64,000 nt of DNA from a virus: positions 1-64,000 of the IMG/VR virus record IMGVR_UViG_3300046787_000206; one strand, given 5' to 3'. A program made the position numbers and the translations under genes. Position 1 is the first letter of the stretch. Each line of letters opens with the position of its first letter. Below the pieces are notes generated by a model, which was not told where the DNA came from, made no database searches, and saw only the letters and a list, made by a program, of their open reading frames with translations. Positions 567 to 28,989 of the stretch are shown one piece after another.

Positions 567-785
567 ATGGCACAGAATAACTTTGGTCCAGGTTGGGCTG
601 CACGTGCTGTTCGAGCATCTAACAAGCGTAAGGCTGCTAAGCCAGCGTTGCCTGTGAAGAACCCTATCCAGTTTCCTGAGCCTACTGAGCCAGTTGAGCA
701 CAATGAGGGCATCTGGTGCCCCCAGAAGTGTGGCCAGAAGATTACAGGCAGTATTGTCGCTCACTTGACCGAGAAGCACTCATAA
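567..785 (+). CDS. Small protein with C-terminal C2H2-like zinc motif
   Basis: CPQKC...HLTEKH; AGGA RBS; TAATG coupling to next gene. Confidence 0.65.
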   Translation: MAQNNFGPGWAARAVRASNKRKAAKPALPVKNPIQFPEPTEPVEHNEGIWCPQKCGQKITGSIVAHLTEKHS

Positions 786-1102
786 TGGCTGACCGTAATT
801 CTAACTTTAGGGACAGTGCCCTGTATCATGGCACATCCCACCCATTTGAAATTGGCGACATCATCGAGCCTCGCCACATCGAGCCTACCAACCCTTATAA
901 CCGACCATCTGACGCTAAAGCTTGGGCAACCCCAAATGCTGATGCTGCGTTCTCTTTTGGCAGTAGACGCACAGGAAAGGCCGCCAAGGTGTTCCAGGTA
1001 GCTCCAATCGAGCCTTCTGAGCCGAAGTATTTGAATGACGACCCTAACTCAGGTCAGGTCTACAGCAAAAAGGGCTTCAAAGTAGTCAAGAGGGTCAAGT
1101 AA
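785..1102 (+). CDS. Arr-like (rifampin ADP-ribosyltransferase fold) NAD-dependent ADP-ribosyltransferase
   Basis: LYHGTS, GDIIEP, WAT, VFQVAP, DDPN, VYS..FKVV motifs follow the Arr order; start moved to ATG 785 (TAATG overlap). Confidence 0.65.
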   Translation: MADRNSNFRDSALYHGTSHPFEIGDIIEPRHIEPTNPYNRPSDAKAWATPNADAAFSFGSRRTGKAAKVFQVAPIEPSEPKYLNDDPNSGQVYSKKGFKVVKRVK

Positions 1103-1422
1103 TGGGCGCAAATAACGCAGACTTTAATGGGTTGAGCTTCGAGTACGACAAAATCGGCAGTTTGCACTATCTAGAAGCCCAAAAAGGCGGAGAAGTAGTT
1201 GGCAAGCTTAACTGGGCCCACCCAAGCGGTAACGTGACAGGTATTCACGTCCCAAAGGAGCACCGCCGTCAGGGCATCGCCACTGCTCTATATAACGAGG
1301 GCAACCGCCTATCAGCTACTCGAGGCATCCCTAAGCCGAAGATTACTAATGACCGCACTAATGACGGCGAAGCTTGGTCTCGCAGTCTGGGAATTAGGCT
1401 TCCTAAAAATAAAAATCTTTAA
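1102..1422 (+). CDS. GNAT-family acetyltransferase
   Basis: IHVPKEHRRQGIATALY acetyl-CoA motif A. Confidence 0.8.
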   Translation: MGANNADFNGLSFEYDKIGSLHYLEAQKGGEVVGKLNWAHPSGNVTGIHVPKEHRRQGIATALYNEGNRLSATRGIPKPKITNDRTNDGEAWSRSLGIRLPKNKNL

Positions 1423-1427
1423 CACAC

Positions 1428-1455
1428 TTGACAACATGTGGAAAGTTATTAAACT
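1428..1455 (+). promoter_or_regulatory. Sigma-A-like promoter of the ncRNA/tRNA island
   Basis: TTGACA (1428-1433), 16 nt spacer, TAAACT (1450-1455); predicted start about 1461. Confidence 0.6.
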
Positions 1456-1462
1456 TGATACC

Positions 1463-1545
1463 ACTACAGATGCGTCTTCTCCTTTCTGTCGTTTGTAGTT
1501 GTTTGGTGAACAGCGGCCCCAAGTCCCCCCTTCGCTTGGGGCCGT
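1463..1545 (+). ncRNA. Putative two-hairpin sRNA with pyrimidine/C-rich loops (6C-RNA-like)
   Basis: Stem ACTACAGATG/CGTTTGTAGT with loop containing CTCCTTTC; stem GCGGCCCCAAG/CTTGGGGCCGT with loop TCCCCCCTTCG; begins at the predicted TSS. Confidence 0.45.
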
Positions 1546-1554
1546 ATCACCTAA

Positions 1555-1634
1555 GGGCCTGAAATGGTGTCGATTGCTTCTCAAAGCCGCTAGTCGGAGG
1601 AAGTAAGACCACAGTTCGATTCTGTGCAGGTCCA
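1555..1634 (+). ncRNA. ssrA: Minimal tmRNA: tRNA-like domain only, no mRNA-like domain
   Basis: Acceptor GGGCCTG/CAGGTCC with G3.U70 and A discriminator; stemless D-loop AAATGGTGTCGA; helix 2 TTGCTTCT/GGAAGTAA; GAC linker; T-arm CACAG-TTCGATT-CTGTG. Confidence 0.8.
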
Positions 1635-1704
1635 CGATGGGAGAGGCAAGACAGAGGGCTCTGAATACAGGGCGTGGCTGTCCAACTCTCTCCTCATCAC
1701 CAAA

Positions 1705-1776
1705 TGCCCGCTGGCGCAATGGCAGCGCAAGAAGCTGTTAACTTCGAGGTTCCTGGTTCGAGTCCAGGGCGGGCAG
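1705..1776 (+). tRNA. tRNA-Asn(GTT), CCA not encoded
   Basis: Cloverleaf TGCCCGC/GCGGGCA, anticodon loop CTGTTAA, T-loop TTCGAGT. Confidence 0.92.
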
Positions 1777-1855
1777 CTATAGAAGTCCCCTTCTTCTATA
1801 CGGCTCGGTACTCATGCCGTCAAATGAGTATCCGTACCAGATGCGAGTTCTGGAA

Positions 1856-1935
1856 GAGTCGATGGTGTAACGGCAGCACATCTCCCACTGACGAGTGGAC
1901 AAAGAGAAGGTACGGGTTCAAATCCCACAGACTCA
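1856..1935 (+). pseudogene. Degenerate tRNA-like element with anticodon loop replaced by a hairpin
   Basis: GAGTC/GACTC acceptor, D-arm GTGT-AACGGCA-GCAC, T-loop GGG-TTCAAAT-CCC; TCTC/GAGA encloses CCACT-GACG-AGTGG instead of a 7-nt loop. Confidence 0.55.
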
Positions 1936-2090
1936 CTCAAAGGAATGCTCTGAACAAGTGTTCCTGCGATGTATCACTACTGAAACCTATCCCTGTGGAA
2001 GCATCATACGAAGGCGTTCAGGCTGATGGAGATTGCTCTGCGACCCCACTAGGTAGTGACAGCTGGCAGGCTTACCCGTGGCCAGCACAT

Positions 2091-2166
2091 GCCTCCTTAG
2101 CTCATCTGGTAGAGTGCCTCACTTGTAATGAGGATGTGGCGGGTTCAAGTCCTGCAGGAGGCTCCA
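2091..2166 (+). tRNA. tRNA-Thr(TGT)
   Basis: Cloverleaf GCCTCCT/AGGAGGC, anticodon loop CTTGTAA, encoded CCA. Confidence 0.95.
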
Positions 2167-2267
2167 GTCTGTCAATGGATAGCGTGACTGAACGTGTACT
2201 ACGGACCATTGGCCCTGAAGATGAGCAGGTTAGGGTAGCACCCTTACACAAAACAGCCTCATCACAT

Positions 2268-2342
2268 GTCGGAGTAGAGAAGTTCGGTTATCTCGCCAGC
2301 CTCATAAGCTGGAGCTCGCAGGTTCAAATCCTGCCTCCGCCT
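2268..2342 (+). tRNA. tRNA-Met(CAT), U2.C71 mismatch, CCA not encoded
   Basis: Anticodon arm CCAGC-CTCATAA-GCTGG, T-arm GCAGG-TTCAAAT-CCTGC; Met vs Ile2 not resolved. Confidence 0.88.
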
Positions 2343-2583
2343 CGACTTACCCCTGCGGTTCGTAACTGTTCAGCACCTCGCAAGAGACTAAGTGGTAAGC
2401 AATGCCTGTAGGGCTGACTCTGGGATGAGTATGTCCAGGAGCGATTACAGGTAAAACTAGCTCCTCTTCATCTTTCGGGATTGATTAGGTTTAGTAGTAA
2501 CAACAGGTTAGACCTCGCTTCTGCAGAAGTAAGCTGACCTCCCGACAGTCGGGCGTGTGTAGACAACGATAGGTTCGCTCCAA

Positions 2584-2669
2584 GGAAGCACGCCGAAGTA
2601 GGAGAGTCGGGGCGGTCTGTAAAACCGTTGGGTGCACCTGAGTGGGTTCAAATCCCTCTGCTTCCACCA
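2584..2669 (+). tRNA. tRNA-Tyr(GTA), long variable arm
   Basis: GGAAGCA/TGCTTCC acceptor, GCGGT-CTGTAAA-ACCGT, encoded CCA. Confidence 0.92.
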
Positions 2670-2822
2670 ACAGCGGAACCCTTCGCACATCTAACCAGTG
2701 TGCCTACAGTTCTGCTGGGCCCACATCTGTTCGTACGGAGTGGTGCTCCCTTGGTCCTGCAGGACCTTGTCGGGGTGTGGGTTAGCCAGAGTAGCCGAGC
2801 ATTTGCCACGGGCTCTGGGTAT

Positions 2823-2896
2823 GTCGGTAAAGTGTTACGGTAGCACGGCGGTCTCCAACACCGCAAGCCCAGGTTCGACTCCTGGTACCCTCGCCA
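2823..2896 (+). tRNA. tRNA-Trp(CCA), two acceptor-stem mismatches
   Basis: GCGGT-CTCCAAC-ACCGC, CCAGG-TTCGACT-CCTGG, encoded CCA; acceptor GTCGGTA/TACCCTC. Confidence 0.85.
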
Positions 2897-2897
2897 A

Positions 2898-2972
2898 TCC
2901 CCATTCGTCTAATTGGCAAGACGCTAGTTTCTGGTGCTGGTTATCGAGGTTCGAGTCCTTGGTGGGGAGCCA
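2898..2972 (+). tRNA. tRNA-Gln(CTG)
   Basis: TCCCCAT/GTGGGGA acceptor, anticodon loop TTCTGGT, encoded CCA. Confidence 0.92.
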
Positions 2973-27929: not shown

Positions 27930-28528
27930 TGGCTATTGATTTTCCTAACTCCCCAACGCTAAACCAAACGCACTCAGTATCTGGTCGCACATGGACTTGG
28001 AACGGCACTACCTGGGATACTCAAACAGCCGCTGCTGGTAAATACCTTGTATCTGATACGGCCCCATCTAGCCCTACTACTGGAGATTCGTGGTTTGACT
28101 CCGTTTCAGGTAAGTTCTTCATCTACTACGACAGTTACTGGGTAGAGTTCGGCACCTCTTCAGGGCCTACTGGAGCTGCGGGCACTAACGGTACCAATGG
28201 AACTAACGGTACCAATGGTGTTGATGGAGGCTTTAACTCAGCACAGACTATAGACAGCAAGTCTGCTGCTTATACCCTTGTATCTGGTGACGCTGGCAAA
28301 CTGATTACCAACTCGGCTGCGGTCACCATTACTGTGCAGGGACTGTCTGTAGGTCAGCAGGTTGACTTCTTGCAGACTAACGCCTCGCAGTTTACGTTTA
28401 CCGCAGGTGCGGGTATGACTTTGGTGTCTAAAGGCTCAAAGCTAAAGACCTCCGCCCAATACTCCCCTGCAACTATTAAGTGCATCGCTACTAACTCATA
28501 CGTTCTTATCGGAGACTTGGCTGCGTAA
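27929..28528 (+). CDS. IDFPNSPT-domain fibre protein with GTN repeat
   Basis: YDSYWVE module, GTNGTNGTNG, ...VLIGDL C-terminus. Confidence 0.75.
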   Translation: MAIDFPNSPTLNQTHSVSGRTWTWNGTTWDTQTAAAGKYLVSDTAPSSPTTGDSWFDSVSGKFFIYYDSYWVEFGTSSGPTGAAGTNGTNGTNGTNGVDGGFNSAQTIDSKSAAYTLVSGDAGKLITNSAAVTITVQGLSVGQQVDFLQTNASQFTFTAGAGMTLVSKGSKLKTSAQYSPATIKCIATNSYVLIGDLAA

Positions 28529-28989
28529 TGGCTTGGTCTGCAGGATTAGTAGGTGCCGCAGGGGCTAGTTTAACCAACCTTGTAGTATTTGACGCTACAA
28601 CGGGCCCTAATAGCTCCGTCACTGGTGGCTGGCACTATGAGCACTGGGATGGTGGAACCCAGGTTTCTATTGGAACAAGCTCCACTGCGGTGTACACCTA
28701 CGCACCATACTGGTCTAACGGTGCTGCGGTTGCCAATAACAACATTGACACTACTGGCGCTGTCTCAGTCACAGTAGAAGTTGAAGGTAACGCAGCTTCG
28801 TATGGATACGCTGGTGTGAGCTTCCCTGGTGGAGGAATCACGGTCGTTGCTGACGGAAGCATAAACAGCCGTCCTAGGACAACCTTAACGGGGGCGGTAA
28901 CTAACGGTGGTGTTGGAAAGCTTAACTTCTGGGCCGCTAACACCTATAACTACTGCTACCTCTACAAGGTAGTAATTAACTATGTTTAA
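28528..28989 (+). CDS. Beta-rich hypothetical protein, possible receptor-binding domain
   Basis: 153 aa, aromatic-rich, coupled. Confidence 0.6.
   Translation: MAWSAGLVGAAGASLTNLVVFDATTGPNSSVTGGWHYEHWDGGTQVSIGTSSTAVYTYAPYWSNGAAVANNNIDTTGAVSVTVEVEGNAASYGYAGVSFPGGGITVVADGSINSRPRTTLTGAVTNGGVGKLNFWAANTYNYCYLYKVVINYV

What the first reader, a model, noticed from the sequence alone, without database searches (positions are those of the whole stretch)
1555..1634. 80-nt mini-tmRNA lacking the tag-coding domain
Seen: all tmRNA tRNA-like-domain hallmarks (G3.U70 plus A73 alanine identity, stemless D-loop ending GGTGTCGA, GAC linker, T-arm), but helix 2 is capped by only about 17 nt (CAAAGCCGCTAGTCGGA) instead of roughly 270 nt of pseudoknots and tag ORF. 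It is not permuted. Known: the TLD is sufficient for AlaRS charging and SmpB binding; a TLD-only ssrA relative is reported from mycobacteriophage DS6A, so there is a rare precedent of unclear function. Inference: it titrates host SmpB and blocks trans-translation, or enters stalled ribosomes without adding a degradation tag. A vestigial frame GCT AGT CGG AGG AAG TAA (ASRRK*) runs through the cap, but its stop lies inside helix 2.
Basis: partly seen in the sequence, partly recalled or inferred. Interest (0 to 1): 0.9.

Follow-up and report, generated by a model that had tools for sequence, protein, structure and literature searches.

The report
Phage tag-less mini-tmRNA gene
This 95-kb phage carries a real 80-base gene for only the alanine-accepting, tRNA-like end of the bacterial ribosome-rescue RNA (tmRNA); one such RNA was known from mycobacteriophage DS6A, and it proves to belong to a large, conserved and mostly unannotated phage family that probably diverts or blocks the host's rescue-and-tagging system.

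Summary
Window 1555-1634 (+) has a 7-bp acceptor stem with G3.U70 and A73, a stemless D-loop (UGGUGUCGA), an 8-bp helix 2 closed by 17 nt, a GAC linker and a T-arm. CCA is not encoded.

ARAGORN and Rfam do not call it, but it is not chance. Pattern scans found over 100 distinct 75-82-nt homologues in viral contigs and 39 more in metagenomes. Nineteen of 23 pairs covary (93.9% of cells paired against 61.8% shuffled).

A model built only from metagenomic members scores the window copy at 77.8 bits (E 4e-21). The same models hit the published DS6A "TLD-only" tmRNA and unannotated spots in Streptomyces phages BRock, LuckySocke and pSt2308, the window phage's nearest cultured relatives. Rfam's tmRNA model passes its threshold on four family members, though not on this copy.

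G3.U70 (38/39) and A73 (39/39) stay fixed when sampling ignores the acceptor stem. No tag frame is conserved; the "vestigial ORF" stop is just helix 2. The cap is itself conserved: an A-rich loop plus a 3-4-bp hairpin.

Function (competition with host tmRNA for SmpB and stalled ribosomes) is inferred. This scan has reported the family before on other DNA.

The parts
1428..1455 (+). sigma-70-like promoter (TTGACA-16-TAAACT) that probably drives the RNA island: leader hairpins, mini-tmRNA, then six tRNAs
   Evidence: 10 of 12 consensus matches; consensus match only. A similar TTGACA...TAAACT site precedes the tRNA cluster in relative L025.
1555..1634 (+). whole mini-tmRNA gene (TLD-only, 80 nt up to discriminator A73; CCA not encoded)
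   Evidence: R1 99.5 bits; R2 77.8 bits, E 3.9e-21; single copy in the 94,962-bp genome
1555..1561 (+). acceptor stem, 5' strand GGGCCUG (G3 of the G3.U70 alanine identity pair at 1557)
   Evidence: Family: G1-C72 and G2-C71 invariant, G3.U70 in 38/39 acceptor-independent members; pairs 4-7 covary.
1562..1573 (+). stemless D-loop AAAUGGUGUCGA (GG and UCGA conserved, as in tmRNA)
   Evidence: The Rfam tmRNA consensus aligns GG..UUCGAC here in family members.
1574..1581 (+). helix 2, 5' strand UUGCUUCU
   Evidence: all 8 pairs show double (compensatory) changes across the family; first pair C-G in 69 and U-A in 21, with no mismatch
1582..1598 (+). cap: A-rich 5' internal loop (CAAAG), 3-bp hairpin CCG-CUAGU-CGG, then A
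   Evidence: 71 of 90 cap-independent members have helix 2 + 5' loop + capping hairpin. AAAG is the commonest loop, and the hairpin covaries (CCG/CGG, CCC/GGG, CCA/UGG, CUG/CAG). DS6A has AAAACCGCACGCGG.
1607..1609 (+). GAC linker between helix 2 and the T-arm
   Evidence: matches GGAC of the Rfam tmRNA consensus
1610..1626 (+). T-arm CACAG-UUCGAUU-CUGUG
   Evidence: 100% of cells paired, 4 of 5 pairs with double changes; partial Rfam hits to permuted and beta tmRNA models
1627..1634 (+). acceptor stem, 3' strand CAGGUCC (U70 at 1631) and discriminator A73 (1634)
   Evidence: A73 in 39/39. C follows A73 in 87/90 members; full CCA is encoded in 21/90; here CGA.
1705..2972 (+). co-oriented tRNA cluster downstream (Asn, Thr, Met, Tyr, Trp, Gln), probably on the same transcript
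   Evidence: In relative L107 the tRNA-Asn gene starts 4 nt after the element.

Best explanation
Window 1555-1634 is a functional gene for a DS6A-type 'TLD-only' (CDS-less) tmRNA. It is the tRNA-like domain of tmRNA with helix 2 closed by a short conserved cap, and it has no pseudoknots, resume codon or tag frame.

Shown: the structure, the family, the conservation of the alanine identity set and the absence of a conserved ORF.

Inferred: it is transcribed with the phage tRNA cluster from the promoter at 1428-1455 and trimmed by host RNase P and 3' processing enzymes. Host enzymes add CCA and host AlaRS charges it with alanine (G3.U70, A73, G2-C71). Host SmpB binds it at the D/T-loop elbow. 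As Ala-TLD.SmpB.EF-Tu it competes with host tmRNA for SmpB and for stalled, mRNA-free A sites. Because it carries no template, stalled chains receive at most alanine instead of the proteolysis tag. The phage would thus divert or block host trans-translation tagging during infection.
For: Identity
- Two covariance models hit the element. R1 includes the window copy. R2 was built only from 54 metagenomic matches (39 distinct sequences) of the other subfamily and gives 77.8 bits, E 3.9e-21.
- The same models hit the published DS6A TLD-only element at JN698994 28478-28557 (66 and 63.9 bits).
- Rfam RF00023 (tmRNA) scores family members L060, L128, L092 and L130 at 65.1, 62.5, 57.2 and 51.8 bits. 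Its gathering score is 47. Model positions 1-374 are aligned with about 300 interior positions skipped.
- The 3' ~30 nt of a family member (L058) are 94-97% identical to annotated full-length tmRNAs of Streptomyces and Mycobacterium phages. Streptomyces phage Forrest tmRNA has the same acceptor stem, GGGCCUG/CAGGUCC.

Structure
- 93.9% of cells are paired against 61.8% in shuffles and 38-53% in slid controls. Nineteen of 23 pairs show compensatory changes.
- Between the window and its relatives, substitutions fall in paired columns and keep the pairing. In L059, 15 pairs changed and none broke.
- Syntenic relatives L107 and L112 keep the RNA at 88-90% nt identity while flanking proteins are only 30-60% identical.

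Chargeability is under selection
- With a search pattern that does not touch the acceptor stem, G1-C72 is 39/39, G2-C71 39/39, G3.U70 38/39 and A73 39/39.
- U on the 3' strand at other acceptor positions mostly pairs with A.

No template
- Only 14/90 members have a GCN codon with an in-frame stop.

Host factors needed
- The phage genome has no SmpB and no full tmRNA.

Published function
- A DS6A-like TLD strongly inhibits E. coli tmRNA (Mao et al. 2009, as cited in PMC4131195 and PMC11915505).
- A TLD fragment with SmpB enters ribosomes and supports template-free polyalanine synthesis in vitro (Shimizu and Ueda 2006, as cited in PMC3929946).
Against: - There is no expression, processing, charging or SmpB-binding data for this RNA or for any non-DS6A member.
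- The window copy itself does not reach Rfam's tmRNA threshold. The best results are 18 bits to permuted tmRNA and 16 bits to beta_tmRNA, for the 3' half only.
- Several fairly close relatives of the phage lack the element (L006-L027), so it is dispensable.
- The published inhibition worked whether or not the RNA could be charged. A pure SmpB sponge is therefore sufficient in E. coli, and ribosome entry is not required by the data.
- The conserved cap has no explanation in this model.
- No translation-related gene is a recurrent neighbour.
Confidence: 0.55

Rival explanations
1. Pure SmpB (and AlaRS) sponge. The RNA acts off the ribosome by sequestering host SmpB, so host tmRNA is destabilised and not delivered. 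Charging and ribosome entry are irrelevant.
For: Hudson et al. [quoted passage not shown] The D-loop and T-loop elbow, where SmpB binds the TLD (PMC3929946), is the most conserved part of the family.
Against: The alanine identity set (G3.U70, A73, G2-C71) and C74 are almost invariant, although every other stem position has turned over. A sponge has no need for an AlaRS identity pair that SmpB does not contact.
Confidence: 0.22
2. Beneficial tag-less rescue factor. Ala-TLD.SmpB frees ribosomes stalled on degraded host or phage mRNAs, raising rescue capacity for the phage. It accepts the nascent chain, possibly adding several alanines without a template. Release would then follow by drop-off with peptidyl-tRNA hydrolase, or by ArfB-type factors.
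For: A TLD fragment with SmpB supports template-free polyalanine synthesis in vitro (PMC3929946). CDS-less tmRNAs persist with SmpB in jakobid mitochondria and some plastids, where they are thought to still help with incomplete mRNAs (PMC11915505). Chargeability is conserved.
Against: No release mechanism is encoded by the RNA. No peptidyl-tRNA hydrolase, ArfB or SmpB gene recurs next to it. In E. coli the DS6A-like RNA inhibited tmRNA function rather than replacing it (PMC4131195).
Confidence: 0.15
3. Not a trans-translation factor. Instead it would be one of three things: a tRNA-shaped processing signal (RNase P/Z punctuation) for the polycistronic RNA island; a decoy for host tRNA-targeting defences; or an alanine donor for a non-ribosomal reaction.
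For: It sits at the head of a tRNA cluster, after a promoter and leader hairpins. Eighteen of 90 family members lie within 500 nt of a tRNA gene.
Against: 67 of 90 loci have no tRNA gene at all, and one lineage carries the gene between the prohead protease and major capsid genes. A cutting signal needs neither G3.U70/A73 nor the tmRNA-specific D-loop. There is no anticodon loop for anticodon nucleases to target.
Confidence: 0.06
4. Decaying remnant: a pseudogene left by deletion of a phage tmRNA, or an attP-type fragment of host ssrA, with no function.
For: Close relatives of the phage lack it, and tRNA gene fragments occur in the same slot in L025.
Against: Compensatory evolution in all four helices across more than 100 sequences. 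88-90% nt identity where flanking proteins are 30-60% identical. Both halves of the acceptor stem are present. No integrase is adjacent. The length is conserved at 75-82 nt.
Confidence: 0.02

Closest known systems
TLD-only (CDS-less) tmRNA of Mycobacterium phage DS6A (tmRNA Website tmID 11587 / Phage__Mycobacterium.9; Mao et al. 2009, cited in PMC4131195 and PMC11915505)
   Same: Same family by covariance model: DS6A 28478-28557 scores 66 bits with R1 and 63.9 bits with R2. Both are 80 nt with G3.U70, A73, a stemless GG..UCGA D-loop and a short helix 2. Both caps share one plan, an A-rich loop plus a CCG/CGG hairpin (DS6A AAAACCGCACGCGG, window AAAGCCGCUAGUCGG). Neither has a tag frame.
   Different: DS6A is a 60.6-kb temperate mycobacteriophage, and its element lies between gp33 and a DNA pol III gene, not in a tRNA cluster. 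DS6A has a CAC rather than GAC linker and a C-G rather than U-A first pair in helix 2. Only DS6A-like RNA has experimental data.
Unannotated homologues in Streptomyces myophages BRock (KX925554 97143-97220), LuckySocke (OR725497 17977-18054), pSt2308 (PV588686 33356-33433), GiJojo and Alone3
   Same: Same RNA family: BRock, LuckySocke and pSt2308 score 56.8-61 bits with R1 and 82-91 bits with R2; GiJojo and Alone3 were matched by BLAST only. In BRock and LuckySocke it lies inside a tRNA cluster. These phages are the nearest cultured relatives of the window phage: large terminase 50-52% aa identical, contractile-tail gene set and about 50% GC.
   Different: They belong to the GGUUUCGAC...GGAC subfamily. 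The window copy has AAAUGGUGUCGAUU...UAAGAC. Neither the records nor the BRock genome paper annotate the element.
Full-length one-piece tmRNA (Rfam RF00023), including phage copies such as Streptomyces phage Forrest (tag ANSNFALAA*)
   Same: Acceptor stem, D-loop, GAC linker, T-arm and UCCA end align to the model's TLD. Forrest tmRNA has the identical acceptor stem, GGGCCUG/CAGGUCC.
   Different: No pseudoknots, resume codon, tag ORF or stop: about 300 model positions are missing. The window copy does not reach the gathering score.
CDS-less organellar tmRNAs (jakobid mitochondria; ~65-bp genes in Mallomonadaceae plastids; PMC11915505)
   Same: Natural tmRNA derivatives reduced to the tRNA-like domain that coexist with SmpB. 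They pose the same open question of how release occurs without a stop codon.
   Different: They are organellar, vertically inherited and act as the cell's own rescue RNA. This one is phage-borne and acts alongside an intact host tmRNA. No Rfam mt-tmRNA hit was listed at E <= 10.
Synthetic TLD fragments used in vitro (Shimizu and Ueda 2006; Bessho et al. 2007; Neubauer et al. 2012; all as cited in PMC3929946)
   Same: Acceptor, D-loop and T-arm with a short capped helix 2. These fragments bind SmpB, enter the ribosomal A site with EF-Tu and support template-free polyalanine synthesis.
   Different: The laboratory constructs are closed by a UUCG tetraloop. The natural family keeps a specific A-rich loop plus hairpin cap of unknown role.

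Membership tests
DS6A-type TLD-only (CDS-less) tmRNA | 7-bp acceptor stem with G1-C72, G2-C71, G3.U70 and discriminator A73 | tested here: met
   Sequence. Conserved in 38-39 of 39 acceptor-independent homologues.
DS6A-type TLD-only (CDS-less) tmRNA | Stemless D-loop with GG..UCGA, (G)GAC linker, 5-bp T-stem with GUUCRANUC loop | tested here: met
   T-stem 100% paired with covariation.
DS6A-type TLD-only (CDS-less) tmRNA | Helix 2 closed within a few tens of nt; no pseudoknots and no conserved tag frame | tested here: met
   33 nt lie between UCGA and GAC. Only 14/90 members have a GCN codon with an in-frame stop.
DS6A-type TLD-only (CDS-less) tmRNA | Significant match to a family covariance model that also recognises DS6A | tested here: met
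   R2, built without the window's subfamily: window 77.8 bits (E 3.9e-21), DS6A 63.9 bits. R1: DS6A 66 bits.
DS6A-type TLD-only (CDS-less) tmRNA | Alanylation by AlaRS, SmpB binding, inhibition of tmRNA function | not testable with these tools
   Published only for a DS6A-like RNA in E. coli (PMC4131195, PMC11915505).
tmRNA proper (Rfam RF00023) | Score at or above the Rfam gathering score (47 bits) | tested here: not met
   The window copy gets no RF00023 hit (one search gives only 13 bits, at tRNA-Tyr). Family members L060, L128, L092 and L130 do pass, at 51.8-65.1 bits.
tmRNA proper (Rfam RF00023) | mRNA-like domain: resume codon, tag ORF ending in a stop, pseudoknots | tested here: not met
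   The gene is only 80 nt; no frame is conserved across the family. It is therefore filed as a TLD-only derivative, not as a tmRNA.
Permuted two-piece tmRNA (RF04321, RF01849-51) | Acceptor piece (T-arm, 3' acceptor strand) encoded upstream of the coding piece (5' acceptor strand) | tested here: not met
   The 5' and 3' halves are in standard order. Only partial 3'-half matches of 16-18 bits, below the gathering scores of 47-84.
tRNA (RF00005) | D-stem, anticodon stem with a 7-nt anticodon loop | tested here: not met
   No ARAGORN call and no RF00005 hit even at E <= 10. There is no D-stem or anticodon loop in the sequence.
Mitochondrial CDS-less tmRNA (Rfam mt-tmRNA) | Match to the Rfam model | tested here: not met
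   No such hit among matches listed at E <= 10 against all 4227 families. Lower-scoring matches of the same clan that overlap are not listed.

The most novel reading that the evidence does not exclude
The phage mini-tmRNA is not merely an inhibitor. It may act as a template-free alanine-tailing device. Successive Ala-TLD.SmpB.EF-Tu complexes would enter the empty A site of stalled ribosomes and add a short C-terminal alanine run, as TLD fragments do in vitro. The conserved A-rich-loop/hairpin cap would control ribosome transit or release. This would be a phage-encoded, RNA-based analogue of RqcH/NEMF Ala-tailing, and it would re-route the fate of stalled proteins during infection.
Probability: 0.12. 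Interest if true: 0.85.

Novelty: new member of a known kind. Interest (0 to 1): 0.5.

Why it matters
Why some phages carry tmRNA-related genes is an open question. The only described tag-less form, from DS6A, has been treated as a curiosity.

This window's gene belongs to a large, structurally constrained family that standard annotators (ARAGORN, Rfam thresholds) miss. The family is present in cultured Streptomyces and Mycobacterium phages, where it can be deleted and assayed.

The alanine identity set is strictly retained although the RNA has no template. That argues the RNA is charged and meets the ribosome. The family is therefore a natural system for asking three things:
- what happens after trans-peptidation without a resume codon (the same puzzle as in organellar CDS-less tmRNAs);
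- whether phages gain by switching off proteolysis tagging;
- whether the conserved cap marks an unknown contact.

In practice, phage annotation pipelines should add a model for this RNA.

Tried and rejected
Mis-specified patterns
- Two early patterns had wrong spacing: 5 N instead of 4 after GAC, and 9 N instead of 8 before TCCA.
- One search returned only chance hits in coding DNA and in a tRNA-Asn gene.
- One search found L028-L030 by luck, because that element has a bulged acceptor stem.
- again used 5 N after GAC. It returned 12 loci, three of which (L031, L032, L040) were the first canonical members found.

Standard detectors
- ARAGORN and Rfam (gathering and E-value modes) give nothing, or only partial 3'-half hits, on the window copy.
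- BLAST of the element against cultured phages found only a T-arm match to a tRNA-Trp gene.

Relatives found through neighbouring proteins
- Relatives found through the 717-aa protein and through the GNAT gene (L006-L027) do not carry the element.
- L025 has a tRNA-Asn 5'-half fragment in the equivalent slot.

Ideas rejected
- A tag ORF.
- A degraded tRNA-Ala: there is no D-stem or anticodon arm, and the D-loop is tmRNA-specific.
- An attP or ssrA 3' fragment: both halves are present and covary, and no integrase is adjacent.

Searches without result
- Guilt by association: recurrent neighbours are capsid, prohead protease, portal, WhiB, a DnaB-like ATPase and endonuclease VII. None is translation-related.
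- The cap was not found in the full-length tmRNA of Streptomyces phage Forrest.
- Mao et al. 2009 is not held and is cited only through PMC4131195 and PMC11915505.
- Literature searches found no paper describing a widespread phage TLD-only family.

Complex prediction was not used, because it does not take RNA.

Full report
**What is there.** The window is the first 64 kb of a 94,962-bp IMG/VR virus record estimated 99% complete. Its proteins mark a contractile-tailed phage: large terminase, portal, tail sheath, baseplate wedge and a DnaB-like helicase. The large terminase is 50-52% identical to those of Streptomyces myophages BRock, pSt2308, GiJojo, LuckySocke and Alone3.

- acceptor stem GGGCCUG/CAGGUCC with G3.U70, and discriminator A;
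- a 12-nt stemless D-loop ending UGGUGUCGA;
- an 8-bp helix 2;
- a 17-nt cap that contains its own CCG/CGG hairpin;
- a GAC linker;
- T-arm CACAG-UUCGAUU-CUGUG.

CCA is not encoded. The gene lies 100 nt downstream of a good sigma-70-like promoter (1428-1455). It lies 71 nt upstream of the first of six co-oriented tRNA genes.

ARAGORN and Rfam at gathering threshold call nothing here. In E-value mode only the 3' half gives weak matches to permuted and beta tmRNA models (8-18 bits). The thermodynamic MFE is a different fold (the TLD fold is -23.6 against -27.2 kcal/mol). The case therefore rests on comparative evidence.

**Finding homologues.** Phage relatives found through two neighbouring proteins lack the element. 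Degenerate pattern scans were decisive, after two of my patterns turned out to be mis-spaced (see Tried and rejected).

One scan of viral contigs required only GG..UCGA, GAC, the T-loop and UCCA. Filtering for a complementary acceptor strand left 96 distinct elements, 90 of them 70-83 nt. ARAGORN called none of them as such; at L053 alone a 343-nt tmRNA call overlaps the element.

A covariance model from 13 of them (R1) recovered 98 strong hits and produced alignment A6.

A second scan, of metagenome contigs, required only the D-loop, the AAAGCCGC cap and GGAC, and nothing in the acceptor stem. It returned 113 loci, of which the 80 listed were searched; 54 passed R1, giving 39 distinct sequences. 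A scan of prokaryote genomes gave about 11 strong hits, mostly on MAG contigs.

**Structure is under selection.**
- On A6, 93.9% of cells form standard pairs, against 61.8% in shuffles and 38-53% when partners are slid.
- Nineteen of 23 pairs show changes on both sides. The covariation score is 0.739 against 0.161 (0 of 500 shuffles reach it).
- All 8 pairs of helix 2 and 4 of 5 T-stem pairs covary.
- The first pair of helix 2 is C-G in 69 members and U-A in 21, with no mismatch. The window belongs to the U-A subfamily (GAUU...UAAGAC).
- Between the window and its nearest relatives, almost all differences fall in paired columns and preserve pairing. In L059, 27 of 32 differences are in paired columns, 15 pairs changed and none broke.
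- L107 and L112 are syntenic with the window. They share the NlpC/P60 gene, the C-terminal part of the 717-aa protein, the M23 peptidase and others, at 30-60% amino-acid identity. The RNA is 88-90% identical.

**It is a tmRNA tRNA-like domain of the DS6A type.** Model R2 was built only from the metagenomic members, none of which belongs to the window's subfamily. It scores the window copy at 77.8 bits (E 3.9e-21), the only hit in the window. One caveat: those members had been collected with R1 as a filter.

R1 and R2 also hit Mycobacterium phage DS6A at 28478-28557 (66 and 63.9 bits). That is the element listed as "TLD only" on the tmRNA Website (PMC4131195, PMC11915505). It has the same cap (AAAACCGCACGCGG).

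The models further hit unannotated intergenic spots inside the tRNA clusters of BRock and LuckySocke, and a spot in pSt2308. These are the window phage's nearest cultured relatives. BLAST adds GiJojo, Alone3, Shaeky and Riptide.

Rfam's tmRNA model RF00023 passes its own gathering score (47 bits) on four family members, at 51.8-65.1 bits. One of them, L130, is in the window's subfamily. The alignment covers model positions 1-374 with about 300 interior positions skipped.

The 3' ~30 nt of a family member (L058) match annotated full-length tmRNAs of about 200 Mycobacterium and Streptomyces phages at 94-97%. Streptomyces phage Forrest tmRNA has the very same acceptor stem as the window copy.

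The window copy itself fails the RF00023 threshold. With no mRNA-like domain it is not a tmRNA proper, so I file it as a member of the TLD-only derivative family.

**No tag.** Only 46 of 90 members have a GCN codon after the A-rich loop, and only 14 of those reach an in-frame stop. It is a by-product of structure.

**Alanine identity.** In the acceptor-independent sample, G1-C72 and G2-C71 are 39/39, G3.U70 is 38/39 and A73 is 39/39. Positions 4-7 have turned over freely. At those positions a 3'-strand U usually pairs with A, not G. C follows A73 in 87 of 90 members, and a full CCA is encoded in 21.

It also bears on mechanism. SmpB contacts the elbow rather than the acceptor stem (PMC3929946), so retention of an AlaRS identity pair implies that charging matters.

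**The cap.** In the cap-independent sample, 71 of 90 members fold as helix 2, then a 5' internal loop, then a 3-4-bp hairpin, then 1-2 nt. The loop is A-rich in 54, and AAAG is the commonest form. The hairpin covaries (CCG/CGG, CCC/GGG, CCA/UGG, CUG/CAG, GCG/CGC). A few AT-rich members replace it with a plain 12-nt loop. I found no counterpart in the Forrest tmRNA, and its role is unknown.

**Context.**
- The phage has one copy, no full tmRNA and no SmpB. It must therefore use host factors.
- Across the family, 18 of 90 elements lie within 500 nt of a tRNA gene, but 67 loci have no tRNA gene at all.
- Recurrent neighbours are structural or replication genes and WhiB (capsid 13 loci, DnaB-like ATPase 12, WhiB 11, prohead protease 10). 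None is translation-related.
- The WhiB neighbours and the cultured hosts point to actinobacteria for many members. The window phage's own host is not established.

**Mechanism (inferred).** Three published results bear on it. A DS6A-like TLD strongly inhibits E. coli tmRNA whether or not it can be charged (Mao et al. 2009, via PMC4131195 and PMC11915505). SmpB bound to the TLD mimics a whole tRNA. A TLD fragment with SmpB supports template-free polyalanine synthesis (PMC3929946).

Combined with the conserved chargeability, the most likely mechanism is that the RNA is processed, CCA-tailed and alanylated, then bound by host SmpB and EF-Tu. It would then compete with host tmRNA both for SmpB and for stalled ribosomes. 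Stalled chains would escape the degradation tag.

The rivals are a pure off-ribosome sponge, a beneficial tag-less (possibly Ala-tailing) rescue factor, a processing or decoy module, and a dead remnant. The last is excluded by the covariation.

**Novelty.** The kind is known from DS6A. This is a new member. The library searched holds no paper describing the family's breadth, its conserved cap or its presence in BRock-like Streptomyces phages.

Earlier follow-ups in this scan reached the same family-level conclusion on other genomes. I consulted them only after my own analysis, and they agree with it.

Noticed in passing
window 1500-1550 (+): Strong hairpin (GGCCCCAAG...CUUGGGGCC) with a C-rich loop, just upstream of the mini-tmRNA. 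It gives a weak match to actinobacterial 6C RNA (RF01066, 17 bits against a gathering score of 47, E 5). It could be a leader or processing hairpin.
   Followed up: no
window 1640-1695 (+): Long hairpin (GGGAGAG...CUCUCUCC) fills the spacer between the mini-tmRNA and tRNA-Asn. In relative L107 this spacer is only 4 nt, so the hairpin is not conserved with the element.
   Followed up: partly
window 2551-2669 (+): Rfam tmRNA model gives a 13-bit sub-threshold match over the tRNA-Tyr region; probably only tRNA-like similarity.
   Followed up: no
window 716-1422 (+): A GNAT acetyltransferase ORF (1102-1422, Pfam 5e-5) lies directly upstream of the RNA island. Its 78%-identical homologue in L025 is followed by an extra ORF (L025:1840-2357, not annotated here) before the tRNA cluster.
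   Followed up: partly
L025:2950-3013: In this relative, the slot before tRNA-Asn holds a fragment resembling the 5' half of a tRNA-Asn gene folded into a hairpin, instead of a mini-tmRNA. This is evidence of rapid turnover of tRNA-like modules.
   Followed up: partly
L069:4759-4837, L120:4566-4644 and about 10 more loci: In one phage lineage the mini-tmRNA gene sits between the prohead protease and major capsid protein genes, on the same strand. That is inside the late structural operon rather than with tRNAs.
   Followed up: partly
L143:5-81 and L143:1317-1392: One viral contig carries two copies of the mini-tmRNA 1.2 kb apart (39.9 and 63.1 bits with R1).
   Followed up: no
L053:2976-3318: ARAGORN calls a 343-nt tmRNA whose 3' end coincides with an 82-nt TLD-only-like element. 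It may be a full-length gene with an internal second 5' half, or a miscall.
   Followed up: no
L011:6087-6155: A 69-nt tRNA-like gene not called by ARAGORN, in a relative's tRNA cluster. It has a D-arm and a T-arm but an odd, short anticodon region (R1 only 19.8 bits), so it is not a TLD.
   Followed up: no
L408:366-633 (Streptomyces phage Forrest tmRNA): This full-length phage tmRNA shares its acceptor stem (GGGCCUG/CAGGUCC) with the window's mini-tmRNA, and both its acceptor stem and its T-stem with many other minis. This hints that the minis arose from actinophage tmRNAs.
   Followed up: partly
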